DNA of 64,000 nt from Parabacteroides distasonis (GCA_963589425.1 CAVAKZ010000003.1:10839-74838), one strand, 5' to 3'; shown: positions 3,525 through 28,820, numbered from the stretch's first letter. Made by a program: numbers and translations. Notes: generated from the letters alone by a model not told the origin.

Positions 3525-3567
3525 GTTATAATAAAATCAAAAATCGGTTTTGGAAAGGGTGAGTATA

Positions 3568-12322: not shown

Positions 12323-15300
12323 TTAATTGATTCTTTTAAGATAGCATACGCCGGTTCTTGTATACGGTACATTTTCGTCGTCGATGAAATATTTTTTAAG
12401 ACTTTTCAGACTTAGTCTAGAAGGTTTCTGAGCTGGATGAAGCGAGTCGTGTACATAAAGAATTGTATTTCCAGGCTCAGTTGTTTTTAGATTCTCAAAT
12501 CCTAAAATAGTGATTACATGTTTGTCATTTGTTAAAGTCATTGCTGATGAGTGATTAGCTGTAAAATTCTCGCCACCAAAAGCTTCTTTAAGTTTGGAGA
12601 TAAACCAATTTTCCCACTCGAGTTTTTTATCATCTCGCTGTGCATCTTCAAAATTACTTTCCTCACAGTGATAATTTTTAACCATATCAAGATGGGAAAT
12701 TTGCTTGAAGCCTCGACGTACATTTCCTGCTTCTCCACGTCCGCTTTGGGAGTGGATAGTAGAACTATTAATATAGTCTAGGTTCAATTCAAAAGGAGCG
12801 TTTTCTACCCGGCCGGCACGAATTAGCTGGGAGGGGACTTTAATACCCTGACACGCTAGCAAATTTGATAAAGCAATGGACCAACAGATGTTGGAGTGAT
12901 TCAAATCTTGGAATTCTAGTTTCGCTAATTTAAAATGATTGTTTTCGATGCTACAAGGCATCGGTTTCTGCTTGGCATATTTATCATCAAGTGCATTAAG
13001 CTTCTCAAGTAAGGCAGCTCTGTCTTTAAGATGTTTCAATAAATAGCTATCAATTTGTTTATCTGTTTTGTTATAGTAATACTTCTGGTATAAGTTGTTT
13101 CGTTCTTCCTTAAGTATCTTTGGATCATTACACTTTAAAAGATTTACAAGCTTAACAAGAAGGACGTTTTCGGGATTATTTTCCATTGCGTCATATAATT
13201 GATGAAAGTTCACGTAATATTCGGGCATATGTTTGGCATTCGGCTTTGTGACTTTATGCTTAGAGCGTTTTATTAAGTTTTTTTGTACAGCAATAAAATC
13301 TTTTTCCATCTGTGCTGTTACCATATAAGATGTATTTCTCATTTCCTGGAAGGTGCGAGGAAGATTCCTTGTATCTAACACTATCTGCCCATTTTTTTTG
13401 GAACTTTGTTGGATTGAGGATTTTGCTCTACTTTCATTGATCTGATTATTATTTGCTTTTTGCAAGCGAGTATATTCTGCATCTGTCTTCTCTTTTGAAT
13501 TTTTTGCTAGTTTGTTCACTCTTTCTTCTTGTTTTAGCTCTTTTTGCAATTTTTCTATGTCAGCATTAACATCCGAATGGTCTTCATTCTCGGACTTGTA
13601 CTTTATAAAGACATCTCCAACAGTTGAATTCTTGGAGGCTTGGTTTTCTCTTTGGTTGTTTTCCTCTTCTTTATCATTTTCTATCTCTAACTGCTTTATT
13701 TGTTCATCCATTTCTGGATCATTGTTCTCATCCACTATTGTTTTGTCTTGCACTGGTTCTACATTTTTCTCTTCTTGTTTTTCCTTGGCCTCCTTCTTGT
13801 TTTCTTCTAGTATAAGGTCATTCAGTTCTTCGTTGATGTCATTTTCATAGTTTATATTTTCATAGTTTATATTTTCGACTTTTACTTCTTCTTTTTTTGC
13901 TGACTCTTGTACCGATGCTTTTTTTATTGCTTCTGAAATTTTTTCATCAGTTACCTCCACTAAAGAACCGGAATTATCTATTTCCTGCATTAGAAGATCG
14001 GTGTCTGCAGTTACCGTAGCTTTTGTGGTTTTCTTCTTAAAGAGTCTAGAAAGCCATGCTGCAATAGTAGTGATGAAACCAGTCTTTTTTGCTTGAATTT
14101 TGAGTGGTTTTAGTTCTTTTGTAGAAGCTAGATCAAGCTTGTCTACAGATTGTAAACTACTATGTCTTTCCACAATATCTTCTTCTTGTATCTTATTGAG
14201 TTGCTTGCTGATCTGTTGATTCAGGATACTTTGAGCCTTTCTTTCTTGTATTTTCTGTCTTTCTTTTTCTTCAGAGACAGCTTCTTCCACCAGAACCTTC
14301 TCACGGTATTCTTTTTCATCAGGATAAAATCTGAGAGTTCCGGACTGAAATTCGCCCATGGTTTTTGCCTTGGGAATTTCGTCTTTTATCTCATCTTTTA
14401 TCTCATCTTTTATCTCATCTTTTATCTCATCCTTTACCTGCTGTTCAGATTCTTTCTGTTCTGCCTGCAAAGCTTTTACAATCACAGGATAAGAAGCGAA
14501 GGCGCTTGTAAGTGCCTCGGCCTTTGCCAGGCCATCTACTTGATCTTTCTTCATAATCGCATCAGAAAGGCTTATGAAATGTTCTAAATTCTCGGGCTTC
14601 TCTATAACTGTAGCAGCATATGGAGAGGTGAGAACTTCAGAGATGAGATTGTATATTTCCGCATTCTCATCCTCAGCATCAACCGGGAAGTTTGTAAGGA
14701 ATTTTTTTAGGTTGTCAATAAGATTCTGACAGTTCTCTGCGGCAATTTTTCCTTCTTTATCCTTCGTTGATACTTCTTTTCTTAAACTTTCTATTTGTTC
14801 TGACAGAGTCTGGCTAACTTCCTCTTTTTCTTTTTGTGCGACTTCTGCCGGATATTTTTTGTACCAGTTTTCTAAAATCGGAAGAGAAGTATCTAATTCC
14901 TGAGAAATTTCATCTAAGCTAGTGTAATACTTATCCTTTTGAAGATTTTGATTTTCCAAGATGTAGAGAGCATGGTCTAAGGTAATCAGATAGGAAAGCT
15001 CATCAAATTGTTCCTTTTCAAATGTAGCTGAGGTGTTTGTCATTAAAGCGTCGAAGGCTTTGGGGTCGCAAACAATTTTTTTGATAACAGAATATAGATT
15101 GTTGTATTTTTCTAATTTTTTACTATGGAATCCGCTATAGGCTTCTGTTTGTATGCGAAGATAATCCTGTGTGTGTCCGCTATCATTTAATAGCAGTATG
15201 CCAGGCTCTTCTAAAACCTGAGCAGCCTGTTTTGCTTCTTCCTTCTTTTTTGTAATATAAGTCTTCCAGTAATATTCGGACAGATTTTCTGCTAGATTTT

Positions 15301-16795
15301 CCCCGGTGTTTTCTTTGGAAATAGCAGAGTCAGGCACTAGATAGGTGATGGCTTTCATAAAGATGTCCAATCCGGTGGAAGAATTTTTGTTTAGGAAATG
15401 ATCGTAGGCAAAGGGGTCAGCTGCGATTGTTTCTACATTGCTCCTTATATTACTCTTGACAGAGGCCAAACGAGGTTCTTCTTTGTCGACTTTTTCCTCG
15501 GGCTGATTTTTGCAAATTTCAGCGGCAACGTTTAATATGTTCTTTAAATTTTTGAAAAGAAATTGTTCTTTATCCTTTTCGGAAAGGTTTGTGTATTCCT
15601 TATAGAGCTGGATAAATTTGGTGTTGACTGCAAGGTCTTTTTCTTGCTCTTTTTCTTGGTTTCCTTCCTTTTTTAAACTATTCTCAGCCTTTGCATCCTC
15701 TTTTTTTAAGGCTTCCGAGAATTTGTCTTGAAAACTTTTCTTAAGCTCTGTCTTAGCTGAAAGCTCTGTCAGGAGTCGATTGGTTTCTTTCTTTTGGGCT
15801 TGTAGGAAGGTATATTCTTCTAAGTGCAGTATCCTCAAATCCTTTCCATCCGTGGCCTTGAAAAGGGTTATCTTGTTAATTGCTATATCCATCTGGTTTA
15901 GGATTTGGCTATAGTAGATCATCTGGAGAAGCTTGGGATGATTCTCCTGGGCATATTGCAGGGCTTCCTGACTGGCAGCCATTCCTGTGACTAGTTTGAA
16001 AATATAGCTGCTAACGCTGCCCTTAAAGAAAAACTTATCTTTTAAATCTGAAATATGCTGGGAGGAGAGGCTACCATTTCCTTCTTGAAAGTAATTTAAT
16101 TGCCCCTGAAGCTGCTTGAACCGTTTTTGGGCAGACATTGCCTCTTGGACATCCCTAAGTTTTTTTTCTAGTTCCGGAAGGGAGGGATCCTTCCGTCCTT
16201 TTTCTTTTTTATTTTTCTTGTCTTTTTTGACTTTTAGGTTCGCGATCTGGGCAGTCAGGTCATTCTCCATTTGCATAAGATCTTGGCTGGGGTCTTGAGC
16301 TTGATCAGTCTTGAAAAAGTGCCCGTTTTTTGCCATGGAGGAGAAGGCTTCATAGAAATTTTCCACTGGTATCTTTTCCTTCTCGCCTTGCTTATTATTC
16401 TCCATCTGAGGCTCTTGAAGCTCTTCTTCCGGAAGATTTTCGTATAGTATTTGATCAGACTCTTCCCTTATTCTTTGGGACACCTGGTCAAGGTTAAAAG
16501 TTTCCCATTTGGCCTTTGTCTTTTTATAAAGGCTACCGTAGTTAGGCATTCCGGTAAGAAATCTGCCTAAAGCCTTGAAAGATTTTTTGAATTTGGAGGC
16601 AGACTCTAACTGCTCCGGAGTTTCTCCCTTTTTTTCAGCAGTTTTATAATAATACTGCATTTTTTCCTGATCATGGGCGTAAGTGTCCATAATGGAGTCT
16701 CCCCGAAGCTTCTGCTCTTTATCTTGCTTGAGGGAGATGTAAGGAGACTTTATTTGTTGAGCTTTTTTTTGTACTTGTTCATCTGGTCCTGGCAT
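12323..16795 (-). CDS. 1490-aa Lys/Glu/Gln-rich, largely low-complexity or coiled-coil protein with a C-terminal papain-like (Cys-His-Asp) thiol hydrolase-like domain
   Basis: Uninterrupted 4.47-kb ORF with SD aggagg 6 nt upstream. No signal peptide. C-terminal ~220 aa carries 'NHSNICWSIALSNLL' (Cys codon 12884-12886), 'DKHVITILGFE' (His codon 12518-12520) and 'ILYVHDS'. This resembles the papain CW / H-x-V-x-x-x-G-[YF] layout. Confidence 0.6.
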   Translation of the reverse strand: MPGPDEQVQKKAQQIKSPYISLKQDKEQKLRGDSIMDTYAHDQEKMQYYYKTAEKKGETPEQLESASKFKKSFKALGRFLTGMPNYGSLYKKTKAKWETFNLDQVSQRIREESDQILYENLPEEELQEPQMENNKQGEKEKIPVENFYEAFSSMAKNGHFFKTDQAQDPSQDLMQMENDLTAQIANLKVKKDKKNKKEKGRKDPSLPELEKKLRDVQEAMSAQKRFKQLQGQLNYFQEGNGSLSSQHISDLKDKFFFKGSVSSYIFKLVTGMAASQEALQYAQENHPKLLQMIYYSQILNQMDIAINKITLFKATDGKDLRILHLEEYTFLQAQKKETNRLLTELSAKTELKKSFQDKFSEALKKEDAKAENSLKKEGNQEKEQEKDLAVNTKFIQLYKEYTNLSEKDKEQFLFKNLKNILNVAAEICKNQPEEKVDKEEPRLASVKSNIRSNVETIAADPFAYDHFLNKNSSTGLDIFMKAITYLVPDSAISKENTGENLAENLSEYYWKTYITKKKEEAKQAAQVLEEPGILLLNDSGHTQDYLRIQTEAYSGFHSKKLEKYNNLYSVIKKIVCDPKAFDALMTNTSATFEKEQFDELSYLITLDHALYILENQNLQKDKYYTSLDEISQELDTSLPILENWYKKYPAEVAQKEKEEVSQTLSEQIESLRKEVSTKDKEGKIAAENCQNLIDNLKKFLTNFPVDAEDENAEIYNLISEVLTSPYAATVIEKPENLEHFISLSDAIMKKDQVDGLAKAEALTSAFASYPVIVKALQAEQKESEQQVKDEIKDEIKDEIKDEIKDEIPKAKTMGEFQSGTLRFYPDEKEYREKVLVEEAVSEEKERQKIQERKAQSILNQQISKQLNKIQEEDIVERHSSLQSVDKLDLASTKELKPLKIQAKKTGFITTIAAWLSRLFKKKTTKATVTADTDLLMQEIDNSGSLVEVTDEKISEAIKKASVQESAKKEEVKVENINYENINYENDINEELNDLILEENKKEAKEKQEEKNVEPVQDKTIVDENNDPEMDEQIKQLEIENDKEEENNQRENQASKNSTVGDVFIKYKSENEDHSDVNADIEKLQKELKQEERVNKLAKNSKEKTDAEYTRLQKANNNQINESRAKSSIQQSSKKNGQIVLDTRNLPRTFQEMRNTSYMVTAQMEKDFIAVQKNLIKRSKHKVTKPNAKHMPEYYVNFHQLYDAMENNPENVLLVKLVNLLKCNDPKILKEERNNLYQKYYYNKTDKQIDSYLLKHLKDRAALLEKLNALDDKYAKQKPMPCSIENNHFKLAKLEFQDLNHSNICWSIALSNLLACQGIKVPSQLIRAGRVENAPFELNLDYINSSTIHSQSGRGEAGNVRRGFKQISHLDMVKNYHCEESNFEDAQRDDKKLEWENWFISKLKEAFGGENFTANHSSAMTLTNDKHVITILGFENLKTTEPGNTILYVHDSLHPAQKPSRLSLKSLKKYFIDDENVPYTRTGVCYLKRIN
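13841..13876. repeat. In-frame 15-bp tandem repeat, about 2.4 copies
   Basis: attttcatagtttat occurs twice perfectly plus a partial copy. It encodes 'NINYENINYEN' in the large protein. Confidence 0.9.
14382..14441. repeat. In-frame 12-bp tandem repeat, 4 perfect and 1 degenerate copy
   Basis: tcttttatctca x4 encodes '(DEIK)n' in the large protein. Confidence 0.95.
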
Positions 16796-16804
16796 GGCTA
16801 CCTC

Positions 16805-17683
16805 CTAAATATTGCTTGTAACGTTGGACTGCAAATTTTTCCATCCGGTGGTGATGCCGGCGTTTGTAATGTTGTGGTCCGGAAGAAGGGCTTTTGCTGC
16901 CTTTAACATGGAATCAAGACCACAGGTAAATTCGATTCGATTCAGAGTTTCCCTTCCGGTTAATAGCTGATCGGAGACTGTTTTCATAAGTCGGATCAGG
17001 GCTTTTAGATAATTTTTTTCTATAAAACAAAGTTCCAGGGAATAGATACCTTCCCCTACGCGGTCTACTAAGATGGCTCCTACGATCTGAGAATTAGAGA
17101 CTAAAAGCCTGCTTAAGCTAGGATCCGCAGAGGCATAGTCGGCCCGGCTGGCCACATAGTTGTGATGGCGCTCCCGGTTCTTTATGAAGTACTCTAACTG
17201 CCTGGATTTTGCATATCTAAGAGAAACAATGCTGTCATCGGAGGAAATTTTGGGACCAAGAATTTCAGGCTGGCTGTAGAAGAGGGCTTGCTTTAGCTGG
17301 TCTCTGCTTACAGAGAAAACAGGCTCTACATGGAAATCAATAAAGAAACCTCGGCGCCCTAGCATAGCCATAAGTCTTCTTTCCTGGTCGGTCTCTCCGC
17401 CTAATGCCACCTCCAGATTTTGGGTGCCATTTTTCTTTGCTTCTAAAATAGCTTTGTCAAGAAGCCGGCTTCCAATTCCTTGTTCTTGATATTCCGGAAG
17501 GACGTAAATCCAAGTAAGCCCCCAATTTTTATCTTTTTTCATCAGAATTACGATGCCTACAGCCTCTTCCTCTATCAAACAGGATAGAACAATGCTAGCT
17601 GTGCGAAGACCATGGATGGGGGCCATATTCCTTACCTTAAAATATTCTGATTCTGTAATTTTTCTTATCTTAAATTGATCCAT
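16805..17683 (-). CDS. GNAT-like N-acetyltransferase domain protein with an uncharacterised C-terminal half
   Basis: 'IYVLPEYQEQGIGSRLLDKAILEAKKNG' fits the acetyl-CoA-binding Q/R-x-x-G-x-G/A motif of GNATs. Its stop overlaps the SD of the downstream 1490-aa gene. Confidence 0.6.
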   Translation of the reverse strand: MDQFKIRKITESEYFKVRNMAPIHGLRTASIVLSCLIEEEAVGIVILMKKDKNWGLTWIYVLPEYQEQGIGSRLLDKAILEAKKNGTQNLEVALGGETDQERRLMAMLGRRGFFIDFHVEPVFSVSRDQLKQALFYSQPEILGPKISSDDSIVSLRYAKSRQLEYFIKNRERHHNYVASRADYASADPSLSRLLVSNSQIVGAILVDRVGEGIYSLELCFIEKNYLKALIRLMKTVSDQLLTGRETLNRIEFTCGLDSMLKAAKALLPDHNITNAGITTGWKNLQSNVTSNI

Positions 17684-17773: not shown

Positions 17774-17802
17774 TTGCCATCTTTTTTGGATTTTGATACA
17801 AT
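17774..17802 (+). promoter_or_regulatory. Candidate sigma-A promoter for the jetABC-like operon
   Basis: TTGCCA, 17-nt spacer, TACAAT, located 43 nt upstream of the ATG at 17845. Confidence 0.45.
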
Positions 17803-17844: not shown

Positions 17845-19281
17845 ATGAAATTAATCGATCAAATTCCAAAAAAATTTTATAAATTATTTGCAAGTAAATA
17901 TATGGACTACTACCAGCAGTTTCTGGTAGACCTTTATGCGGCTTCAGGAAGGTCTTATTCTCTTTTGGGCTTGACAGAAGCGGAGTGCAAGGCTGTGATG
18001 AATGAGCGGATTGCTGAGACCACCCTGGATTGGGACCAGGAGGCCTACGATGAGGAAGGGGACCTCCTTACCAAAGCCAACATGGCGTCGGTCTGTTTAA
18101 AACACTTAGAGGATTGGGGCTGGCTTAAGCAGGATTATGATGAGTCTTTAAATAGCTATGTGGTATCCTTTCCTGAGTACAGCAGGCAGTTTGTAGAACT
18201 TTTTCGAGAGCTTAGGCTGGAAGATCAAAACAAAGAGCGGGAGAGTATTCTTGCCATTTATAGTTACCTTCATACCTACCACACGGACAAGGAAAAGAAT
18301 GTGGAGATCCTGAGAAGTACCTGGTCCATGTCTAAGGGGCTTTTGCAGCAGTTAGCCGGTATGCAGGAAAGCATGCGGGGATATTTTGATGAGCTGTCTA
18401 AGCAGAAAAGTTTTCTTGGAGTGCAAAAGGTTCTGGTAGAGGAGCTTAATAATACGGATAGCAAGAAATATGCCATTCTTACCACCACAGACAGTTTCTA
18501 TCGCTACAAGGAGGCGGTGAAAGAACTGGTATCTGAGATTCGTATAGAAAATGAAGAGCGCTATGAGGAGCTGTTAGGTAAGAAGGAAGTCTATGAGGCG
18601 TCTAAGAAAGATACTATGGATGCAGCAGAGGAGTATTTGTTTCAGTTAAAGGCTCCCTACTACCGCATGGAAAGGAGTCTTAAAAGGGCCAAGGAGGCCT
18701 CAGAGCTTTTGCTTCGCATCGACCGGGAGTTTGACGCCATTGAGCGAAGATATAATATGCTGATTGAGCAAAAGACTGTATTTGCCGGTCGGGCAGCAGC
18801 TAGAATCCGCTATCTTCTGTCAGAGGGAAATGTGGAAGAAGACCAGACAGTAAGCCTTATAAATCTCATAAACAAAAGCCGGAGAAAAGAAGAAATTTTA
18901 GAAAAACTTGGGGAGAAAATAAGCCTTACCCAAAGGTTTAAATTCTTATCAGAAAAAAGCCTTTATAAGAAGAGAAATACAGACAGGGAGGCCTTTGCAC
19001 CGGAGGCAGTAAGCCTAGAGGAAAAAGAGGAAGCCTTGGACGGCTTTGTATTAAAGCCCCTGTATACCAGGCAGGAGCTTGAAGAGTTTAGAAAGAAAAA
19101 TGAGCAGGATGGAGCTTTCCAGGTGACAGAGGATACGGTAAGGTCTATGGAAGATTTGGAAAAATTATTTTTTGTCTGGCAGGAAGCTACGGAAGTGGCA
19201 GACAGTGAAAATGAAATTGAGATTGGAAAAGACTATGAGAACGCAGAAGGCTTCCGCTTTTCTAAGCTTGTGATTCGATAA
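17845..19281 (+). CDS. jetA: JetA/MksF-like (kleisin-like) subunit of a Wadjet/MksBEF-type SMC complex
   Basis: 478 aa, first gene of a three-gene cassette whose order and sizes (about 480/210/1120 aa) fit jetA-jetB-jetC. Predicted mostly helical. The call is made from context, not from a recognised motif. Confidence 0.5.
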   Translation: MKLIDQIPKKFYKLFASKYMDYYQQFLVDLYAASGRSYSLLGLTEAECKAVMNERIAETTLDWDQEAYDEEGDLLTKANMASVCLKHLEDWGWLKQDYDESLNSYVVSFPEYSRQFVELFRELRLEDQNKERESILAIYSYLHTYHTDKEKNVEILRSTWSMSKGLLQQLAGMQESMRGYFDELSKQKSFLGVQKVLVEELNNTDSKKYAILTTTDSFYRYKEAVKELVSEIRIENEERYEELLGKKEVYEASKKDTMDAAEEYLFQLKAPYYRMERSLKRAKEASELLLRIDREFDAIERRYNMLIEQKTVFAGRAAARIRYLLSEGNVEEDQTVSLINLINKSRRKEEILEKLGEKISLTQRFKFLSEKSLYKKRNTDREAFAPEAVSLEEKEEALDGFVLKPLYTRQELEEFRKKNEQDGAFQVTEDTVRSMEDLEKLFFVWQEATEVADSENEIEIGKDYENAEGFRFSKLVIR

Positions 19282-19300
19282 ACAAGAAGCATAAATAAAA

Positions 19301-19372
19301 GGCGTAATAGATGTGTAGATGGAAGCGTAGATAGATGTGTATATAGATACGTAGATAGAAGCATATGTAAAT
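19301..19372. repeat. Degenerate 12-nt tandem repeat (about 6 units) in the jetA-jetB spacer
   Basis: Units are gcgtaatagatg, tgtagatggaag, cgtagatagatg, tgtatatagata, cgtagatagaag and catatgtaaatg. Consensus is YGTAGATAGAWG. Confidence 0.85.
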
Positions 19373-19393
19373 GCGTAAAAAAGGAGCATATAT

Positions 19394-20026
19394 ATGATGG
19401 AATATATAGAAAGTTTGTCCTTATCTGAGGCAGACAATCTGAAAAAAACCATAGGACGGTTATTTAGGCAAACCTGCATTTTGCAAATGCGCTATGATCC
19501 TGAGACCTTAATTCCCAAGGATAATCCGGACTATGAAACCTGTGTGAGGCATAAGGAGTTTATAGAAGATTACCTGTCCGTACTAGGTTGTGAACTGATC
19601 CATGATCCTCAGGAGCATATTTTTCTCCTAAAAGGGGAGGGAGTGGAACTTGAAAAACTAAGTCTTACCACCACCATTATTTTATTGATCGTAAGAATTC
19701 TTTATAGGGATAAAATTCTTGGGGCAGGGCTGGAGGCCACGGTTACCAATCTGAAAGAAATTAGAAGTTATGGAAGAAATACTGGCCTGCTAAATCGAAA
19801 ACTAACTACAGCAGAGTGGAGAGATGCCCTCTATCTAATGAATCGTCACCAGATTATTGAAGTGCCTGGAGCCGTTAAGGATGTGGAGGATGAGACCCCC
19901 ATTTACCTTTATAGCACCATTAATCTGTATATTAGAAATTCGGACATTGGGGAGCTTATAGAGGAGTATAAGGAGGATGCGGTAAATGAGACAATCGAAG
20001 AAAGTCTTTACCCGGATGGTGATTAA
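19394..20026 (+). CDS. jetB: JetB/MksE-like (DUF4194-like) subunit
   Basis: 210 aa. 'FIEDYLSVLGCELIHDPQEHIFLLKGEG' resembles the conserved DUF4194 segment (x-Y-F-x-x-x-G-L-E-L-x-x-D-x-x-x-G-x-x-F-L). It is followed by a hydrophobic helix and overlaps the next gene by 41 nt. Confidence 0.6.
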   Translation: MMEYIESLSLSEADNLKKTIGRLFRQTCILQMRYDPETLIPKDNPDYETCVRHKEFIEDYLSVLGCELIHDPQEHIFLLKGEGVELEKLSLTTTIILLIVRILYRDKILGAGLEATVTNLKEIRSYGRNTGLLNRKLTTAEWRDALYLMNRHQIIEVPGAVKDVEDETPIYLYSTINLYIRNSDIGELIEEYKEDAVNETIEESLYPDGD

Positions 20027-23000
20027 TAACTGGGGAGGAATTAGTCATAAGCTCATGGAATTTCATGAGTACGTGAACCTTTTCAGTGGCAAGAGTGGTT
20101 CGGGAAAGTCCACGGTTATGGATGCCTTGCAGGTGGTTTTGTATGGAAGTACCAAGGCCACCTTTTTAAATAAAGCGGCAGATGATGCCAAGAACAGACG
20201 AAGCGTCTTTAGTTATCTTAGGGGAGCCCAGAAGGATGGCAGTGCCAACCGTCAGGGCATGGACTTTTGTTCCCAACTGGTCCTGGAAATTTGGGATACA
20301 GGAAGTGACACCTATACCTGTATCGGAGTCACCTTTCAGGTAGGAAAGCAGGACAGGGAACTTTCCGATGCCAAATATTCTTTCTTTAGCCACTCCGGAA
20401 AGATCCCGGAAGATGAATATCTAGATGTTAACGGAAGACCATATACTCTGGCAAACATCCAAAAGCTTATTAAAGAGCGGGGAAATTCTCTGGATAATAA
20501 AGGTCGGGGCGAGGTGAACAAGGTCTATCTTACCAACAGAGATTACCTGGGCACTCTCTATGAGCTGGTCTTAGGTCATATGGATCCCGGCCGCTTTATC
20601 ACTATGGAAAAAAGTGCGATTGCTCTTCGCATGAGCAACGGTACCGGTCAGTTTATTAAAGATTACATGTTTCCAAGAAGCAAGGAAGATACCGTCTCTA
20701 CCATCAGTGATCAGTTGGGAGCCTACCGGGAGATTAAGGAGAAGGTGGAAGATTTAGAGCACAGAATCGACCTTCTTTCGGAGGTAAAGCTTGAAAACCA
20801 AGCCCTTATGGAAGCCCAGGCAGACAAGCTTCGGACAGAAGCCCTTCTGCGGATTCTTGATATAGAAGGAACTAAGGCAAGGCTTGCAAGTAAGAAGGGG
20901 CAGAGAGAAAGCATTTTGGATAAGATTGCAGAACTGGAAAAAAAGCAGGAAATTTTGGACCAGGAGAAAAATGCTAAATCTGAGGACCTGATCGAGGTGA
21001 AGGCGGAACTGCAATCCAGTGATTTTGGTGCTAAGAAAAAGGAATTGGAAAATTTAGAGCGCACCATTTCCCAGGCCAAGATTAATGCCGGCCAGTGGAA
21101 GGAGATTTTGGAAGGCCTTGAAAAATGGACCACTGATGAGGAGATAGGCGGCTATATAAGCAATCCAACTCTTCAGGCTATGGAAGATTTGCTTGAGGGC
21201 CAGGTTACAGAAGAAGCTATTGATAAAATTAAAAAAGGCCTTGCCCTTGCCATGGAAAGTATTGAGGAAGAACTTTCGGATTTAGGAGTAAATATTCGGG
21301 AAAAGACCAAAGACTTAAAGGAAAAGAAGGAGATGGTGGAAGATCTAAAAAACGATCGAAAGCCATACAAAAAAGAATTAAAAAGCGCCAGGGTAGAGCT
21401 TCAAAGAGAGCTGTCTAACCGCTATGGCCGCAGCATACCGGTGCACATTTTTGGAGATCTTTTTGATATTACCGATGAGAAGTGGAAGAATGCCATTGAG
21501 GGGCGATTAGGAAGATTAAAGCATAGTCTTATTACAGAACCTAGATATGCCTTAGATGCAGCAGGGGTCTTTCGCTCTATGAAGCGGCGGGAGTATGAAG
21601 AAATTGACCTTATTAACACGGCGGCTATTTTAAGAGAACAGCCAGAGGCTAATGAAGGGACTCTTTATGAGGCGGTAAGCACCAAGGAAGCCTATGTGGA
21701 CCAGTGCCTAAAACGTTATCTTGGAAGAATAAAAAAATGCGACAGCATAGAGGACCTTCATGAGGTCAGGGAAGGCGTTACCGCAGATTGTTATTCCTAC
21801 AGTAATTATATTTTCAGGCACCTAAGGGAAGTGGATTATACCCGTTATGCCTGCATTGGCACCAGGGTTTCCAGGGGAAAGCTTCAGGAAGTAGAAGACG
21901 AGATTATGGACCTTGAGACTAGCCTTCTTTCGGACAACCAAGGCAAAGCCCTTTTAAGCGGTGCAAAAAAAATGGAACAGCTACGGCAAAGCACCAAGAC
22001 TCTCTTGGAACTGGCATCTGCATCAGAGTCTCTGGATGAATACTTAAAGCAGGAGGAAAAAATCAAGGCAGAGATAAAAGAACTCCAGGAGGGAGTAAGA
22101 ACCAAAGAGCTTCATAAGAAGCGGGAAAAATTAGAAGGAGAGCTTTCCCGTCTTGGAGGAGACATAAATAAAGTGCAGAGAAGCCTAGTTAGGGAATCTG
22201 AAAATAAGGGTCGGGTGGAAAAAGAAGAAAGAGAATTAAAGGATCGCCTAGCCTACCTAAAGGAAGGTCAGGCAGAAAATCCAGAGCTTCAAAAAGAAGT
22301 GGAAGAGAGCCTAAAAAATCTTAATGAACAGACCTACCGAGCTGGGTTAAACAAAAAACTGGAGACCCTATCTAAGAAGGAAGAGACTGCCTTAGAAAAA
22401 CGAAACACAGCCAGAATTCATTTTAACAATGAATACCCAAGTTACGGTTACAGCGGCTTAGAGCATGATAACGTCAGATATGATAAGCTCCTTTCCCAGT
22501 ATCAAAAAGACTTTGAGCCCCAGTATAAGGAGGAGTTTGAAAAGCAATATAAGCTGGTCTATCACTCTCTTAGGGAAAATGTCATTGCCACTATTCACGG
22601 GGAGATTAAGGCAGCCTACCGCCATAGAAAAGAAATTAATCGGATGCTGTCGAAAATTCGATTCTCCGACAGTACCTATCAGATTGATATTTTGCCGGCA
22701 GAAAATGAAAACGGCCAGTTCTACGACATGTTAATGGCGGAGGAGTTAGACAGTAAGGTCTTGGACGATGATGGATTTGAAGGCCAGCTTAGTTTAGGAG
22801 AAGATCTTTTCTATCAAAAATATGAAAAACAGATTGGTCTTTTAACAGAAAAATTCATGCCTCCAAGGGAGGAAGATGGAGAGAGACGAAGGCTCCACAA
22901 AGAAGAAATGGAGAAATATGCGGACTATCGAAATTATTTGACCTTCAGCATGTATGAGCGGGTGGAAGATGAATTTGGAAATGTAAAGAAAAATTCTGTA

Positions 23001-23345
23001 GACGATATGGCAGGCAGAGATTCCGGAGGAGAGGGACAAAATCCAAAATACGTGGCCCTATTGGCAGGCTTTGCCATGTTATACATGAACCAGGGCAGTG
23101 GAGATTCCAAGATCCGACTAGTGCTTTTAGATGAAGCCTTTTCTAAAATGGACAAGGAGCGAAGTGAGGTGTGTCTAAGATATGCCAGAGAATTGGACTT
23201 GCAGCTTATTGTATGTGTGCCGGATGAGCGTTTGCAATCCTTGATTCGAAATGTCGACAGTGTCTATGGATTCCGCCGTCATAAGAACCAGATTTCCATG
23301 ATGCATATTGACAAGGGCAGCTATCTGGAGATGATGGAGGGATAA
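19986..23345 (+). CDS. jetC: JetC/MksB-like SMC-family ATPase
   Basis: N-terminal 'VINNWGG...LFSGKSGSGKSTVMDAL' (P-loop head). About 700 aa of K/E/L-rich coiled coil with a central non-coil hinge-like segment. C-terminal 'SGGEGQ' signature-like motif and 'LVLLDEAFSKMD' Walker B. SD aggagg lies 7 nt upstream of ATG 19986. Confidence 0.75.
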   Translation: MRQSKKVFTRMVINNWGGISHKLMEFHEYVNLFSGKSGSGKSTVMDALQVVLYGSTKATFLNKAADDAKNRRSVFSYLRGAQKDGSANRQGMDFCSQLVLEIWDTGSDTYTCIGVTFQVGKQDRELSDAKYSFFSHSGKIPEDEYLDVNGRPYTLANIQKLIKERGNSLDNKGRGEVNKVYLTNRDYLGTLYELVLGHMDPGRFITMEKSAIALRMSNGTGQFIKDYMFPRSKEDTVSTISDQLGAYREIKEKVEDLEHRIDLLSEVKLENQALMEAQADKLRTEALLRILDIEGTKARLASKKGQRESILDKIAELEKKQEILDQEKNAKSEDLIEVKAELQSSDFGAKKKELENLERTISQAKINAGQWKEILEGLEKWTTDEEIGGYISNPTLQAMEDLLEGQVTEEAIDKIKKGLALAMESIEEELSDLGVNIREKTKDLKEKKEMVEDLKNDRKPYKKELKSARVELQRELSNRYGRSIPVHIFGDLFDITDEKWKNAIEGRLGRLKHSLITEPRYALDAAGVFRSMKRREYEEIDLINTAAILREQPEANEGTLYEAVSTKEAYVDQCLKRYLGRIKKCDSIEDLHEVREGVTADCYSYSNYIFRHLREVDYTRYACIGTRVSRGKLQEVEDEIMDLETSLLSDNQGKALLSGAKKMEQLRQSTKTLLELASASESLDEYLKQEEKIKAEIKELQEGVRTKELHKKREKLEGELSRLGGDINKVQRSLVRESENKGRVEKEERELKDRLAYLKEGQAENPELQKEVEESLKNLNEQTYRAGLNKKLETLSKKEETALEKRNTARIHFNNEYPSYGYSGLEHDNVRYDKLLSQYQKDFEPQYKEEFEKQYKLVYHSLRENVIATIHGEIKAAYRHRKEINRMLSKIRFSDSTYQIDILPAENENGQFYDMLMAEELDSKVLDDDGFEGQLSLGEDLFYQKYEKQIGLLTEKFMPPREEDGERRRLHKEEMEKYADYRNYLTFSMYERVEDEFGNVKKNSVDDMAGRDSGGEGQNPKYVALLAGFAMLYMNQGSGDSKIRLVLLDEAFSKMDKERSEVCLRYARELDLQLIVCVPDERLQSLIRNVDSVYGFRRHKNQISMMHIDKGSYLEMMEG

Positions 23346-23471: not shown

Positions 23472-24263
23472 ATGGGAAAGACCATCACCATGTGTTTTAC
23501 CAACAATAAAGGAGGAAGCGGTAAGTCCACTACCTGTTCTAATTTAGGAGCAGCCCTAGCAAGAGCCGGAAAGAAAGTGCTCTTGGTGGACGGGGATATG
23601 CAGTTGAATCTTTCTCTATCATTTTTTCCTCAGGACTGGGTCTTAGAGCAGGCAGCAGGCGAGAAGAACCTCTACCGGGCTATTGGAAAGCAGGCAGATC
23701 TTACCGGCTATATTGTACATACCCCTTATGAGAATCTGGATCTGATTCCCTCTTCTACCCTAATGAGTTCCATTGAGTACGAGCTATTTACCAAGTGGCA
23801 GAGAGAATTCATTTTGAGAAAATGTTTAAAAAAGGTGAAAGAATCAGGCGCCTATGATTATATTCTCATTGATGCACCGCCAACCCTAGGAGGATGGGTG
23901 ATGAACATCCTATGTGCTTCCGACAAGGTCTTGATTCCGGTGGAGGCAAGTCCCTGGGGCATGTTTGGTTTGGCCAATATGGTTGATTTTCTCAATGAGG
24001 TGCAGCAGATTTCCCCAGACTTATCAGTGGCAGGAATCGTGGTAACCAAGGCAGACACTAGGAAGAATTATTTTAAACAGACTTTGGAAACATTACATGA
24101 TTTGGAAGATATTTACGTATTTGATTCCATTATTCGAGTAGACAGCTCTGTGGAATGGGCCCAGGACAACAGCGCTCCCGTAGTGGAATACAAAAAATCC
24201 AGCAGAAGTGCAAAGGAATACATAAGTTTAGCAGAGGAGGTAATGGAACATGTCGGTAGGTAA
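23472..24263 (+). CDS. ParA/Soj-family ATPase
   Basis: Deviant Walker A 'NNKGGSGKST', plus 'LLVDGDMQ' and 'YILIDAPP'. Start at ATG 23472 with SD aaggagg. Confidence 0.88.
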   Translation: MGKTITMCFTNNKGGSGKSTTCSNLGAALARAGKKVLLVDGDMQLNLSLSFFPQDWVLEQAAGEKNLYRAIGKQADLTGYIVHTPYENLDLIPSSTLMSSIEYELFTKWQREFILRKCLKKVKESGAYDYILIDAPPTLGGWVMNILCASDKVLIPVEASPWGMFGLANMVDFLNEVQQISPDLSVAGIVVTKADTRKNYFKQTLETLHDLEDIYVFDSIIRVDSSVEWAQDNSAPVVEYKKSSRSAKEYISLAEEVMEHVGR

Positions 24264-24504
24264 GGATAGCTTAAAGAGGGCAGCCAGCGCAACAGCTGCG
24301 AAAGAAACAAAGACGACGGCTACAAAAACAGCCGGTAAAAAGCCGGTAGCCAAGAAGGCAGAGACTAAGCTTGAGAATCAATCAGAGAATAAAGAGGTAA
24401 CAGCAGTGGTGAATACCGGAACCAGCAAGGAAGTAAAGGACATGTTTGTGCCGGAGGAGAGAGTCAGCCATGTAAGGGAAGAACTTCCGGTATATTTGTT
24501 GTAG
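24250..24504 (+). CDS. 84-aa Lys/Ala/Thr-rich, probably disordered protein (candidate ParA partner)
   Basis: SD gaggagg lies upstream and the start overlaps the parA stop by 14 nt. The N-terminus 'SLKRAASATAAKETKTTATKTAGKKPVAKKAETK' is basic and low complexity. The C-terminus is 'VSHVREELPVYLL'. No recognisable DNA-binding fold. Confidence 0.55.
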   Translation: MSVGKDSLKRAASATAAKETKTTATKTAGKKPVAKKAETKLENQSENKEVTAVVNTGTSKEVKDMFVPEERVSHVREELPVYLL

Positions 24505-25389: not shown

Positions 25390-25608
25390 ATGAGTGGAAA
25401 ATTACAACAATTATTTGATTTACAGCATTTTGCAGAGAATAAGAAATTGCAGTCCTTAATCGATGATACCATGAGCAGATATGGAGCTGGATCCACAGGA
25501 AGAATGGAGCTTGAGGAAGATGATCTTGATATGCTTTTTGCGGCAGGAGATTCCCATATGGTTGGCAGAGGCAGCAATTTATTTGGAAAAGATGAGGAGA
25601 GTATATAA
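25390..25608 (+). CDS. 72-aa peptide with a double-glycine-type leader-like segment (candidate exported peptide precursor)
   Basis: SD gaaagggg lies upstream. 'MELEEDDLDMLFAAG|DSHM' resembles the L-x-x-x-E-L-x-x-[IVL]-x-G-[GA] leader end cleaved by C39 exporters. The N-terminus 'MSGKLQQLFDLQHFAENKKLQSLI' is loosely Nif11-leader-like. The stop TAA shares one nt with the sigma gene ATG. Confidence 0.5.
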   Translation: MSGKLQQLFDLQHFAENKKLQSLIDDTMSRYGAGSTGRMELEEDDLDMLFAAGDSHMVGRGSNLFGKDEESI

Positions 25609-26120
25609 TGCAGACAGTTACTGCGGAGACTATTTACAGAGATTACTATAAAAAGATTTGTGGATTTGTATATAAGAAAGTAGGAGACTCCAATGCGGCG
25701 GAGGATCTGGTGTCGGATATTTTTTTAAAGATCACAGCCAATATTGATCGGTTTGACCCGGAGAAGGCAGCGGTTTCTACTTGGGTATATACTATAGCCA
25801 ACAACACAGTGCTGGATTATTATCGTACCCGGAAGGTTCACGGACAGCTTCCGGAGGACAATGGAGAGAACGGAGCCTTGCCGGATAGTTTGGTAGAGTC
25901 TAAGGGCTTGGATGCAGGTCTTTTGGAGGAAGAACAACTGGAGGAACTGGCAGATGCCTTAGCAAAACTGCCTGAGCGGTCCAGAGATATTATTATACTT
26001 CATTACTATGGGAATATGACCTTGAAGGAAGTTGCCTTTAAGATGGGAATGTCCTATGCCAATATTAAGATTGTGCACAAGAAGGCTATCCAGGAATTAA
26101 AAAGGCTAATGACAGAATAA
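25608..26120 (+). CDS. ECF-like sigma-70 family RNA polymerase sigma factor
   Basis: Region 2 'AEDLVSDIFLKI...FDPEKAAVSTWVYTIANNTVLDYYR'. Region 4 HTH 'IIILHYYGNMTLKEVAFKMGMSYANIKIVHKKAIQELK'. Length is 170 aa. Confidence 0.88.
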   Translation: MQTVTAETIYRDYYKKICGFVYKKVGDSNAAEDLVSDIFLKITANIDRFDPEKAAVSTWVYTIANNTVLDYYRTRKVHGQLPEDNGENGALPDSLVESKGLDAGLLEEEQLEELADALAKLPERSRDIIILHYYGNMTLKEVAFKMGMSYANIKIVHKKAIQELKRLMTE

Positions 26121-26132
26121 GAGGTATTTCGT

Positions 26133-26618
26133 ATGTCGGAAGAAAAAGGGACATCTTTGTTTCGTAAAAAAAGCGAGGAATATATTGATTCCCCGGAGAA
26201 ACTTGACCACTATCTTCACGTTACGAATCCAGGGATATGGGCACTGCTTTTGGCAGTGCTCCTGTTGTTCATAGGATTTGTTGCATGGAGTTTTATGGCA
26301 AGATTGGAAACCCATGTGGCAGTGGCGGTGGTTTCGGAAAATGATACTTGTACGGCCTATGTGCCGGCCAAGGCCTTGGATGCAGTGGTGAAGGCCAGAA
26401 CCGTGACCCTTAATGATCGGGAGTATTCTTTATCTCCTGATTCTCCAAAACCGGAGACGGTTACAGATGAAACCAATATTTATATTCGTCTGGCAGCAGA
26501 CTTGTCCATAGGGGATGTGGTATATGCGATCCCTATGGATGGAGATTTGAAAAATGGAGTCTACAGTGGAGTAGTTGCTACGGAGACCTTGTCTCCCATT
26601 TCCTTGCTGTTAGATTAA
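26133..26618 (+). CDS. Short single-TM HlyD-like accessory protein (NHLM-type secretion protein N-terminus, truncated form)
   Basis: 'LFRKKSEEYIDSPEKLDHYLHVTNPGIWALLLAVLLLFIGF' matches the typical N-terminus and TM of bacteriocin-exporter HlyD partners. At only 161 aa it lacks the long coiled-coil hairpin. Confidence 0.55.
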   Translation: MSEEKGTSLFRKKSEEYIDSPEKLDHYLHVTNPGIWALLLAVLLLFIGFVAWSFMARLETHVAVAVVSENDTCTAYVPAKALDAVVKARTVTLNDREYSLSPDSPKPETVTDETNIYIRLAADLSIGDVVYAIPMDGDLKNGVYSGVVATETLSPISLLLD

Positions 26619-26627
26619 AGAGGGCCC

Positions 26628-28805
26628 ATGTCTATGAGAAAGAAAAAAATGAATCAACCCCTAAGCAAGGGCGTGGCAAGGGTTCCGGTGATTATGCAGC
26701 TGGAGATGCTGGAGTGCGGTGCGGCCTGTTTTGCCATGATTATGGGATATTATGGGAAATGGATTACTCTGGAGCAGGCAAGGATTGACTGTGGAGTGTC
26801 CAGAGACGGGTCCAGTGCGAAAAATATTATGCGGGCAGCAAAAGGCTATGGTATGGAAGTGCATGCTTACAAACTGGAGCCGGAAGCCCTTTTCAAAGAG
26901 GGCCCTTTTCCCTGTATGATTCACTGGGGATTTAACCATTTTGTGGTACTTGATGGCTTCCATGGAAATAAGGCCGTGCTTAATGACCCGGCAAGAGGCC
27001 GGATTGTGGTATCCTGGGAGGAGTTCGATAGGGAATTTACAGGAGTCTGCATGACCATGGCACCAGGGCCTGACTTTGTGCCGGAGGGGGCCAGAAAGAA
27101 TGTTTGGAAATATGCCGGAGAACGTATAAAAGGAACGGGAAGCTCTACGATATTTGTGGCCTTAACTACGGTGATTATTGCCTTTTTAGGAATCCTACAA
27201 CCTATATTTAATCAGATTTTTTTGGATCGTTTGCTTACAGGAACCAATAAAGACTGGCTTTTTGGATTTCTTGTGGTTCTGGGAGTTTATTCGGGAGTCC
27301 TGGTGCTAATGAGCTGGATCAATGCGATTTATGGATTAAAGATTCAGGGAAAGATTTCCGCTGTGGGGAATTCTTCCTATTTGTGGAAAATCCTGCGGCT
27401 TCCCATGCAATTTTTTGATCAGCGACTTCCCAGAGACTTGGTGGAGAGGCAAAGTACCAATGCTTCCATTGCAGGAGACTTGGTTAACACCTTTGGCCCT
27501 CTGGTGATCAATAGCTGGATGATGGTATTCTATCTGGTGCTGATGCTAAGAAGAAGCCTTTTTCTTACCCTGATTGGAGTGGGCTCACTAGCTATCAACT
27601 TGCTGGTATCAGGTTGGATTACCCAAAGACGAGTAAATATACAGCGAGTCCAGATGAGAGATCAAAGTAAATTTTCCAGTGCAGTTGTCACCGGAATTGA
27701 TATGATCGAGACCATAAAGGCCAGCGGTGTGGAAAAAGGATATTTCGCCAGACTTTCTGGATATCAGGCCAGCGTTAATGAGGGAGAAACCAGATTTGCA
27801 AAATTTAACCAGTGGCTGGAGATTATTCCCAGACTTTGTGGAGCCCTAGCTAACCTTGCAGTTTTAGGTTATGGAATGGACCTGGTCATAAACGGAGAAA
27901 TGACCCTTGGTATGATTATGGCTTTTCAAGGCTTTTTAAATGCTTTTACAGCTCCCGCAACTTCTATGGTATCTGCAGGCCAGTCTCTCCAGGAAATGTT
28001 GACCCAGATGGAACGAGTAGACGATGTTATGAATTATGAAAATGACGCCTGGTTTCAGGAGCGGGAAATTATAGACCGACAGGAGAAATTAAGTGGTCAA
28101 ATAGAGCTAAAAAATGTTACTTTTGGATATTCAAGGTTTGCAGCTCCCGTTATTGAAAACTTTTCCATGAAGGTAAAAGCCGGGGAAAAGATTGCCATTG
28201 TGGGAGCTTCAGGCTGTGGAAAATCAACCCTGGTAAAACTTCTCACCGGCCTTAGTAAGGCCTGGTCCGGAGAGATTTTATTTGACGGAATTGAGATTTC
28301 GAAAATGGACAGAGATATATTTACAGCCTCTGTATCGGTGGTAGACCAGGAAGTAATTCTTTTTGACGATACCATTGCCAACAACATTTCCATGTGGGAT
28401 GACACTATGGAGGATGGGGATATTATAGCAGCTGCCAAGGACGCTCAGATTCATGAGGACATCCGAAAGGCAGGGGGCTATCAAAATAAGATCCAAGAAG
28501 AGGGTAGGGACCTGTCAGGAGGCCAAAGGCAGAGACTTGAGATTGCAAGAGCCTTGGCCAAGAACCCCTCCATCTGCATTCTGGATGAGGCTACTTCAGC
28601 TTTAGATGCCAAGACAGAATATGATGTGGTAAATGCTATAAGTAAAAGAGGAATCACTTGTATTGTGGTTGCCCACCGCCTGTCCACTATCAGGGATTGT
28701 GATGAGATCATTGTCTTGGATCAGGGGCAGATTGTAGAGTCTGGTACCCATGATGAATTAATGAAACTTGATGGATTTTATAAATTGCTGATTACAAACG
28801 ACTAG
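26628..28805 (+). CDS. Peptidase-C39-domain ABC exporter (PCAT, peptidase/ATP-binding)
   Basis: C39 motifs 'QLEMLECGAAC' (Cys), 'GFNHFVVL' (His) and 'LNDP'. Six-TM exporter core. Walker A 'GASGCGKST', signature 'LSGGQRQR', Walker B 'ILDEATSALD'. Confidence 0.9.
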   Translation: MSMRKKKMNQPLSKGVARVPVIMQLEMLECGAACFAMIMGYYGKWITLEQARIDCGVSRDGSSAKNIMRAAKGYGMEVHAYKLEPEALFKEGPFPCMIHWGFNHFVVLDGFHGNKAVLNDPARGRIVVSWEEFDREFTGVCMTMAPGPDFVPEGARKNVWKYAGERIKGTGSSTIFVALTTVIIAFLGILQPIFNQIFLDRLLTGTNKDWLFGFLVVLGVYSGVLVLMSWINAIYGLKIQGKISAVGNSSYLWKILRLPMQFFDQRLPRDLVERQSTNASIAGDLVNTFGPLVINSWMMVFYLVLMLRRSLFLTLIGVGSLAINLLVSGWITQRRVNIQRVQMRDQSKFSSAVVTGIDMIETIKASGVEKGYFARLSGYQASVNEGETRFAKFNQWLEIIPRLCGALANLAVLGYGMDLVINGEMTLGMIMAFQGFLNAFTAPATSMVSAGQSLQEMLTQMERVDDVMNYENDAWFQEREIIDRQEKLSGQIELKNVTFGYSRFAAPVIENFSMKVKAGEKIAIVGASGCGKSTLVKLLTGLSKAWSGEILFDGIEISKMDRDIFTASVSVVDQEVILFDDTIANNISMWDDTMEDGDIIAAAKDAQIHEDIRKAGGYQNKIQEEGRDLSGGQRQRLEIARALAKNPSICILDEATSALDAKTEYDVVNAISKRGITCIVVAHRLSTIRDCDEIIVLDQGQIVESGTHDELMKLDGFYKLLITND

Positions 28806-28820
28806 AAAGGAGATTATTTC

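What the first reader, a model, noticed from the sequence alone, without database searches (positions are those of the whole stretch)
17845..23345. Wadjet/MksBEF-like jetA-jetB-jetC cassette with no jetD nuclease gene
Three co-oriented genes of 478, 210 and 1119 aa follow the order and sizes of jetA (kleisin-like), jetB (DUF4194-like) and jetC (SMC-like ATPase), and jetB and jetC overlap by 41 nt. jetC shows Walker A 'GKSGSGKST', a long coiled coil, an 'SGGEGQ' signature-like motif and Walker B 'LLDEAF'. In described Wadjet systems a roughly 400-aa JetD (Toprim/DUF2220-type nuclease) gene sits directly next to jetC and is needed for plasmid cleavage. Here the next gene starts 127 nt downstream, has its own near-consensus promoter and encodes a ParA ATPase. 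I see no other ORF of suitable size or motif on either strand between 12.3 and 25.3 kb. This could be a nuclease-less condensin-like MksBEF in a lineage that normally relies on SMC-ScpAB. It could also be a Wadjet derivative that uses a different, unrecognised effector from the neighbourhood.
Basis: partly seen in the sequence, partly recalled or inferred. Interest (0 to 1): 0.75.

Follow-up and report, generated by a model that had tools for sequence, protein, structure and literature searches.

The report
Wadjet JetABC operon lacking its nuclease
This is an intact three-gene Wadjet (JetABC) DNA-motor operon in a Blautia-like gut bacterium that has no gene for its DNA-cutting partner JetD nearby, a known kind of nuclease-less variant that proves to be very common among related gut bacteria.

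Summary
jetA (17845-19281), jetB (19394-20026) and jetC (19986-23345) are full-length type I Wadjet genes, with PADLOC hits to JetA1 (6e-208), JetB1 (6e-105) and JetC1 (1420 bits). No JetD-like sequence occurs anywhere in the 64-kb window, as an ORF or as a fragment.

The junction from jetC to parA is the same in more than 15 independent assemblies, so it is not an assembly gap. ParA is not a replacement effector. ParA plus a small overlapping ORF is a conserved Blautia chromosomal pair that also occurs without jetABC.

Among 79 related Lachnospiraceae loci, 43 of the 68 with enough flanking DNA have no jetD nearby. This needs at least 13 state changes on the JetC tree. jetABC stays under strong purifying selection (dN/dS 0.03-0.13) and the ATPase residues are invariant. 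Genes after jetC in these loci are unrelated housekeeping genes.

The most likely reading is a selectively maintained, nuclease-free SMC loop-extruding motor (MksBEF-like). A jetD elsewhere in the genome cannot be excluded.

Nuclease-less Wadjet/MksBEF operons are already published (Bürmann 2025 Fig. S1A; Petrushenko 2011). This is therefore a new member of a known kind and of moderate interest.

The parts
17774..17802 (+). Promoter-like site upstream of jetA (TTGCCA-17-TACAAT, with TG before the -10 hexamer)
   Evidence: Consensus scan, 10 of 12 positions match. This is a consensus match only. The number of such sites in the region is no higher than in shuffled sequence.
17845..19281 (+). jetA, the kleisin subunit (478 aa)
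   Evidence: Pfam JetA PF18982 at 2e-79 covering residues 37-478. PADLOC JetA1 PDLC00450 at 6e-208 over the full length. dN/dS is 0.04-0.06 within the window clade.
19307..19366 (.). Tandem array with a 12-nt period (ATAGATGTGTAG-like units) in the jetA-jetB spacer
   Evidence: the repeat finder family D1. The spacer length varies among close relatives because these units are present or absent; L033 has almost no spacer. Function unknown; probably a hypervariable simple repeat.
19394..20026 (+). jetB, the KITE subunit (210 aa), preceded by an AAGGAG ribosome-binding site
   Evidence: Pfam DUF4194 at 1.9e-12. PADLOC JetB1 PDLC00471 at 6e-105. dN/dS is 0.03-0.08.
19986..23345 (+). jetC, the SMC-type ABC ATPase (1119 aa); overlaps jetB by 41 nt
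   Evidence: PADLOC JetC1 PDLC00505 at 1420 bits covering residues 1-1119. Pfam AAA_29 and SbcC_Walker_B. Walker A at residue 35, signature motif at 1013, Walker B at 1047. K41, Q82, S1013, D1049 and E1050 are invariant in 77 homologues. dN/dS is 0.04-0.07.

Best explanation
The region is a complete, intact type I Wadjet motor module: JetA kleisin, JetB KITE and JetC SMC ATPase. It sits on the chromosome of a Blautia-like Lachnospiraceae bacterium and has no JetD Toprim nuclease gene at the locus. It belongs to one of many lineages in this family in which jetD is missing from the locus while jetABC has been kept under purifying selection.

Shown: the gene identities, the intact ATPase motifs, the absence of jetD within 17.8 kb upstream and 40.6 kb downstream, the same junction across species and assemblies, purifying selection, and the lack of any shared replacement gene.

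Inferred: JetABC still assembles as a dimer-of-dimers SMC complex that loads onto DNA and extrudes loops using ATP. Without JetD it cannot cleave. It is therefore kept for a nuclease-independent role, as in MksBEF. That role could be accessory chromosome organisation, or entrapment and compaction of small circular DNA without cutting.
For: Identity. No JetD in the window.

The GNAT|jetABC|parA-orf84-AIM24 arrangement recurs in three other species-level genomes (L001, L002, L033; JetC 87-92% identical). It also recurs in 16 metagenome contigs and in three conspecific MAGs plus two Logan contigs.

Among 79 related loci, 43 of the 68 with enough flank lack jetD, and 34 of those have at least 9 kb downstream. 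At least 13 state changes are needed on the JetC tree. JetD-less clades contain 11, 8, 4 and 4 species.

Within JetD-less clades, dN/dS of jetA, jetB and jetC is 0.03-0.13 (0.14 in one jetA pair) at dS of 0.2-2.3. This matches JetD-positive clades. Catalytic residues are invariant.

In four of four sampled JetD clusters, jetD overlaps the end of jetC, so orphan jetD genes look rare.

[quoted passage not shown] Nuclease loss across the Wadjet group is documented (PMC7617805).
Against: Only 64 kb of the genome is visible, so a distal jetD is not excluded. In one related species, jetD lies 9-13 kb from jetC because other genes were inserted between them.

The cassette is accessory. It is absent upstream of parA in other Blautia, and its genomic context differs between clades. 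This is unlike a core condensin.

In all tested type I systems, restriction needs JetD. Nuclease-dead JetD abolishes it (10.1101/2022.10.04.510915). No nuclease-independent defence activity has been demonstrated.

The N-terminal motif of JetB corresponds by position to the helix proposed to dock JetD in other systems. It is as conserved in JetD-less loci as in JetD-positive loci.
Confidence: 0.6

Rival explanations
1. This is a canonical plasmid-cleaving Wadjet whose jetD is encoded elsewhere in the genome and acts in trans.
For: JetD binds JetABC transiently and works at sub-stoichiometric amounts in vitro. In Mediterraneibacter faecis-like genomes, jetD is separated from jetC by a 9-13 kb insertion. 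In L056 it lies 2.9 kb away. The JetB N-terminal motif is equally conserved in loci without jetD. Strong purifying selection is what one would expect if the full system still works.
Against: There is no jetD in the 17.8 kb upstream or the 40.6 kb downstream, and those flanks are housekeeping genes, not an inserted element. In 4 of 4 sampled JetD clusters, and in all but one JetD-positive locus of this set, jetD abuts jetABC or is split from it only by an insertion. If most JetD-less loci used a distal jetD, orphan jetD genes should be common, and none was seen. This sample is small and biased towards operonic JetD.
Confidence: 0.22
2. This is a Wadjet derivative that uses a different effector encoded next to it: ParA/orf84/AIM24 downstream, or the divergent GNAT gene plus the 1490-aa ORF upstream.
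For: These neighbours are syntenic with jetABC in all four species of the window clade. The 1490-aa protein has no known domain.
Against: ParA (85-90% identical) with its small overlapping ORF occurs in other Blautia without jetABC. It also has its own promoter-like site and ribosome-binding site. No neighbour family is shared among the other JetD-less clades. The genes after jetC there are MgsA/RarA, an NTP-transferase, an Fe-ADH, an MBOAT, an alanine symporter and response regulators. The 1490-aa ORF evolves quickly (37-66% identity) while jetABC stays at 85-92%.
Confidence: 0.05
3. This is a non-functional remnant decaying after recent loss of jetD.
For: jetD deletions can be recent. L062 keeps only 40-55 codons of jetD relative to its near-identical relative L003. 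L034 carries a frameshifted jetD.
Against: All three genes are full length in every assembly seen. dN/dS is 0.03-0.08 across synonymous divergence of 0.7-2.3 in the window clade. Catalytic residues are invariant.
Confidence: 0.03
4. This is an assembly or annotation artefact that hides jetD.
For: None found.
Against: The same junction from jetC to parA, of about 100-130 nt, appears in independent assemblies from several projects and species. There are no Ns or gaps in the sequence.
Confidence: 0.01

Closest known systems
Type I Wadjet JetABCD (B. cereus Q1, E. coli GF4-3, P. aeruginosa PA14; in Clostridia, the C. cellulovorans jetABCD of PMC12287153)
   Same: The JetA, JetB and JetC families match the PADLOC type I models over their full length. 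The gene order is A-B-C, with an overlapping B/C junction and the SMC ATPase motifs. Close relatives at 62-70% JetC identity carry jetD overlapping the end of jetC.
   Different: There is no jetD at the locus or within the 64 kb. jetD is the signature subunit and is needed for cleavage and for restriction in every tested system.
Three-gene MksBEF (P. aeruginosa PAO1 MksBEF; M. smegmatis MksB), nuclease-less members of the Wadjet group
   Same: It is a three-gene kleisin/KITE/SMC operon without the Toprim subunit. [quoted passage not shown] S1A).
   Different: It comes from a different sequence lineage: a Firmicutes type I clade nested among JetD-carrying relatives. The Pfam MksE and MukB N-terminal hits fall below their cut-offs. 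No evidence for a chromosomal role exists here. The cassette is accessory and patchy within Blautia-like genomes.
MukBEF of Enterobacteria
   Same: It has the same overall architecture and lacks MksG/JetD (PMC7617805).
   Different: MukBEF is an essential core condensin that replaces Smc-ScpAB. The sequence relationship is distant, with a MukB N-terminal hit of only 22 bits against a cut-off of 23.

Membership tests
Wadjet type I (JetABCD) | JetA kleisin (PF18982 / DUF5716) | tested here: met
   Pfam at 2e-79 and PADLOC JetA1 at 6e-208.
Wadjet type I (JetABCD) | JetB KITE (DUF4194) | tested here: met
   Pfam DUF4194 at 47.6 bits against a cut-off of 32.7. PADLOC JetB1 at 6e-105.
Wadjet type I (JetABCD) | JetC SMC-type ATPase with Walker A, Walker B and signature motifs and a long coiled coil | tested here: met
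   PADLOC JetC1 at 1420 bits. Motifs at residues 35, 1013 and 1047. Segments rich in coiled-coil-favouring residues at about 240-360 and 640-790.
Wadjet type I (JetABCD) | JetD Toprim nuclease (DUF2220/JetD_C, DUF2399, DUF3322) encoded in the operon | tested here: not met
   No hit in any ORF or six-frame segment of the window. No such Pfam family was found in any ORF of 150 aa or more. The same holds in the syntenic relatives.
Wadjet type I (JetABCD) | ATP-dependent cleavage or restriction of small circular DNA | not testable with these tools
   Needs transformation or conjugation assays, or biochemistry.
MksBEF-type nuclease-less SMC complex | Three-gene kleisin/KITE/SMC operon without MksG/JetD | tested here: met
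   This holds within the 64 kb examined; the whole genome was not available.
MksBEF-type nuclease-less SMC complex | Contributes to chromosome organisation or segregation | not testable with these tools
   Needs Hi-C, ChIP and deletion phenotypes.
MksBEF-type nuclease-less SMC complex | Maintained as a functional unit without the nuclease | tested here: met
   dN/dS is 0.03-0.13 in JetD-less clades of up to 11 species (0.14 in one jetA pair). Catalytic residues are invariant.
MukBEF proper | Sequence membership (Pfam MukB, MukE, MukF) | tested here: not met
   The MukB N-terminal hit scores 22.4 bits, below the cut-off of 23. MksE scores 20.1, below 27. There is no MukF or MukE hit.

The most novel reading that the evidence does not exclude
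Gut Lachnospiraceae may be repeatedly converting an immune type I Wadjet into a nuclease-free JetABC module that selection then keeps, with at least 13 changes of jetD state on the JetC tree. This would be a live, many-times-replicated version of the proposed Wadjet-to-MksBEF/MukBEF transition. JetABC alone would then have a selectable activity in these bacteria, either accessory chromosome folding or nuclease-independent entrapment or silencing of small circular DNA. The window clade would be one stable example.
Probability: 0.4. Interest if true: 0.6.

Novelty: new member of a known kind. Interest (0 to 1): 0.4.

Why it matters
Wadjet is currently understood as an extrude-then-cleave machine in which JetD is indispensable. 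A large set of closely related natural operons, with and without jetD, all under purifying selection, would help answer two questions. What does the SMC motor do on its own? How does an immune SMC complex turn into a chromosomal one? It also matters for annotation. Defence-system finders that require all four genes will miss these loci, and finders that accept three genes will over-call plasmid restriction in common gut commensals.

Tried and rejected
1. Mapping the JetD docking residue of E. coli JetC (F919, the 'larynx') onto this JetC failed. Sequence and profile searches of the PDB aligned only about 60 N-terminal residues to Rad50 and JetC.

2. Searching for columns conserved in JetD-positive loci but relaxed in JetD-negative loci gave only diffuse differences confounded by phylogeny.

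3. The JetB N-terminus does not discriminate between the two states.

4. The JetD-to-metagenome scan returned 79 loci from essentially one species. It did not sample orphan jetD broadly. The apparent orphans turned out to be jetD split from jetC by a 9-13 kb insertion.

5. The JetD profile search of the protein database returned no organism names, so it could not link JetD to JetD-less genomes.

6. Exact-match look-ups of the window's JetC and its 271-aa ParA ORF found nothing. JetB did match.

7. A 450-aa gene that overlaps the end of jetC in seven JetD-less loci looked like a replacement effector. It is MgsA/RarA, a housekeeping AAA+ protein.

8. A homologue search with the C-terminal domain of the 1490-aa ORF found nothing.

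9. No flanking direct repeats, tRNA genes or composition shift mark the cassette as a recent insertion.

Full report
**Observation.** The window carries three co-oriented ORFs at 17845-19281 (478 aa), 19394-20026 (210 aa) and 19986-23345 (1119 aa). The last two overlap by 41 nt. Profile searches leave no doubt about what they are.
- The first ORF matches Pfam JetA (PF18982, 2e-79) and PADLOC JetA1 (6e-208).
- The second matches DUF4194 (1.9e-12) and JetB1 (6e-105).
- The third matches JetC1 over its whole length (1420 bits), plus AAA_29 and SbcC_Walker_B.
K41, Q82, S1013, D1049 and E1050 are invariant in 77 homologues.

The next gene is a ParA-type ATPase. Its likely start is ATG 23472, 127 nt after jetC, behind an AAGGAGG ribosome-binding site and a TTGAAA-17-TATAAT promoter-like site. 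All best PADLOC hits are to type I models.

**Absence of JetD in the window.** I fetched 80 related loci with JetC. I confirmed by PADLOC that the roughly 400-430 aa gene following jetC in several of them is JetD1, and built an HMM from 22 such proteins.
- Against every ORF of 70 aa or more, and every six-frame segment of 25 aa or more, the best window score is E about 1-2.
- tblastn gives nothing better than E = 0.06 over 22-78 residues.
- Pfam scans of essentially every ORF of 150 aa or more return ordinary chromosomal functions. These include sugar ABC transport, MalQ, PGI, MTHFR, GlmS, MetRS, TatD, KsgA, AsnRS, a Mur ligase, DnaD, a DnaC-like protein, PRPP synthetase, ProRS, two-component systems, GGDEF/EAL proteins and a sigma factor with two C39/ABC exporters.
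- No DUF2220, DUF2399, DUF3322 or Toprim protein was found.

So jetD is absent from 17.8 kb upstream and 40.6 kb downstream of the cassette.

**Not an artefact, and not private to this genome.**
- Three species-level relatives (L001, L002, L033; JetC 87-92% identical) share the full arrangement CAAX protease, large ORF, GNAT, jetABC, parA, orf84, AIM24, sigma factor, ABC exporters.
- Sixteen metagenome contigs carrying a 98%-identical ParA all show jetA(478)-jetB(211)-jetC(1119)-parA.
- Three NCBI MAGs and two Logan contigs encode the identical JetB with the same junction.

**Neighbours are not replacement effectors.** ParA homologues of 85-90% identity are widespread in Blautia, which identifies the window as a Blautia-like chromosome. 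In those genomes ParA is again followed by a small overlapping ORF. It is preceded there by unrelated genes (an LRR/Big_2 surface protein, or MacB/FtsX) and not by jetABC. ParA plus the small ORF is therefore an independent conserved module.

Across the other JetD-less loci, the genes after jetC are unrelated housekeeping genes. They are MgsA/RarA, an NTP-transferase, an Fe-alcohol dehydrogenase, an MBOAT, an alanine symporter and response regulators. No gene family recurs.

**The wider pattern.** Of 79 loci with jetC:
- 19 have jetD directly after jetC and 2 have it upstream of jetA.
- One has jetD cut by a contig end, one has a frameshifted jetD, and one keeps only a 40-55 codon remnant (L062, compared with its near-identical relative L003).
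- One has jetD 2.9 kb downstream, and one has it 9.2 kb downstream behind inserted genes.
- 43 have none despite at least 2 kb of downstream flank; 34 of these have at least 9 kb.
- 10 are too short to judge.

On a neighbour-joining JetC tree the two states interleave, and Fitch parsimony needs at least 13 changes. JetD-less clades contain 11 species (minimum JetC identity 77%), 8 species (80%), 4 species (88%, the window clade) and 4 species (94%).

Nei-Gojobori dN/dS for jetA, jetB and jetC inside JetD-less clades is 0.03-0.13 (0.14 in one jetA pair) at dS of 0.2 to above 2. In the window clade it is 0.03-0.08 at dS 0.7-2.3. These values are indistinguishable from JetD-positive clades (0.03-0.16). 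JetD itself evolves two to three times faster at the protein level. JetABC is thus a selected, functional unit in lineages that have no jetD at the locus.

**Could jetD be elsewhere?** I cannot scan the whole genome, so this stays open. Two results bear on it.
- *Separation does occur.* A JetD-based metagenome scan returned 79 loci from one M. faecis-like species. Many of these show no jetABC within 10 kb upstream of jetD. Alignment with L041 shows they are the same locus, with a variable 9-13 kb insertion between jetC and jetD.
- *Orphan jetD genes look rare.* In four independently chosen JetD clusters on long contigs, jetD overlaps the end of jetC in every place shown. If the majority JetD-less state were served by unlinked jetD genes, orphans should be common. 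This sample is small and biased towards JetD proteins resembling operonic ones.

In the window the downstream 40 kb is uninterrupted housekeeping DNA, so the insertion scenario does not apply. One hint points the other way. The JetB N-terminal motif (Y4, E6, L8, S9, E12) is as conserved in JetD-less loci as in JetD-positive loci. By position it corresponds to the short helix proposed to bind the JetD aCAP domain in other type I systems (PMC10586767; 10.1101/2023.11.03.565488). I could not map the JetC docking residue F919, because PDB sequence searches aligned only the first 60 or so residues.

**Mechanism.** By homology, JetABC should form the dimer-of-dimers SMC motor that entraps DNA and extrudes loops. 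In characterised systems it stalls after extruding a whole small circle, and JetD then cleaves the bent DNA. All four subunits, and the JetD active site, are needed for restriction in the systems tested.

Without JetD the motor cannot cut. The selective retention therefore implies a nuclease-independent role, or a partner supplied in trans. [quoted passage not shown] Against a core-condensin role, the cassette is accessory. It is absent at this site in other Blautia, and its context differs between clades.

I rate the alternatives as follows:
- nuclease-free motor kept for its own activity: about 0.6
- jetD in trans: about 0.2
- neighbouring alternative effector: about 0.05
- decaying remnant: about 0.03

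**Novelty.** Three-gene MksBEF operons scattered by horizontal transfer have been known since Petrushenko 2011 (as cited). Bürmann et al. [quoted passage not shown] S1A. Their operon table contains 94 nuclease-less clusters against 775 nuclease-bearing ones.

The window is therefore a new member of a known kind. Two things seem not to have been described specifically. In this Lachnospiraceae type I clade, the nuclease-less state is the majority (43 of 68, against about 11% globally). It is also recurrent and stably maintained. Interest is moderate.

Noticed in passing
window 12323-16795 (-), with the GNAT gene at 16805-17683 (-) immediately upstream on the same strand: A 1490-aa ORF, very rich in Lys and Glu, has no Pfam or PADLOC hit. 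It is divergently transcribed from jetA. It is syntenic in the window clade but evolves fast (37-66% identity, length 1490-1818 aa) while its neighbours are 64-98% identical. Its C-terminal part of about 250 aa looks globular and contains an 'NICWSIALSNLL ... HVITILGF' pattern reminiscent of a papain-like Cys/His protease. That reading comes from the sequence alone. A homologue search with this domain found nothing.
   Followed up: partly
window 19307-19366 (jetA-jetB spacer): Five or so units of a 12-nt tandem repeat (ATAGATGTGTAG-like). The spacer ranges from almost nothing (L033) to about 137 nt (L160) among close relatives, through gain and loss of these units.
   Followed up: partly
window 23472-24504; loci L166-L173: ParA (263 aa) plus an overlapping small ORF (84-122 aa, no known domain) forms a conserved two-gene chromosomal module across Blautia, at 85-98% ParA identity. 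No ParB is adjacent. It is an orphan ParA system of unknown function.
   Followed up: partly
L041 13362-22585; L091, L102, L082, L098, L155, L081: In a Mediterraneibacter ([Ruminococcus]) faecis-like species, the Wadjet operon is polymorphic. jetC and jetD are 18 nt apart in some contigs. In others they are separated by insertions of about 0.8, 2.3, 3, 9 or more than 10 kb. The large inserts carry genes of 402, 725, 462 and 911 aa. In L041 jetC itself is also split.
   Followed up: partly
L062 13377-13541 compared with L003 13377-14483; L034 13347-14536: These are snapshots of jetD decay. L062 (Dorea ammoniilytica) keeps only the first 40-55 codons of jetD relative to its near-identical neighbour L003. 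L003's own JetD (368 aa) appears to be internally shortened. L034 has a frameshifted jetD.
   Followed up: partly
Related loci L003-L076 (JetD-positive clades): JetD evolves much faster than its partners. Pairwise dN is 0.25-0.41 for JetD and 0.11-0.20 for JetC in the same genome pairs.
   Followed up: no
window 3550-5211 (+): A 553-aa protein combining a predicted AAA-ATPase (PF09820) with a PD-(D/E)XK nuclease domain (PDDEXK_9). It lies 12.6 kb upstream of jetA. No link to the cassette was found or tested.
   Followed up: no
window 50407-52941 (+): An 844-aa ORF with no Pfam hit, sitting among housekeeping genes (a methyltransferase upstream, AsnRS downstream).
   Followed up: no
window 25608-30998 (+): A sigma-70 family (ECF-like) factor, a 161-aa ORF with no known domain, and two 725-aa ABC exporters, the first with a C39 peptidase domain. 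This looks like a bacteriocin or peptide export cluster. It is syntenic in all window-clade genomes.
   Followed up: no
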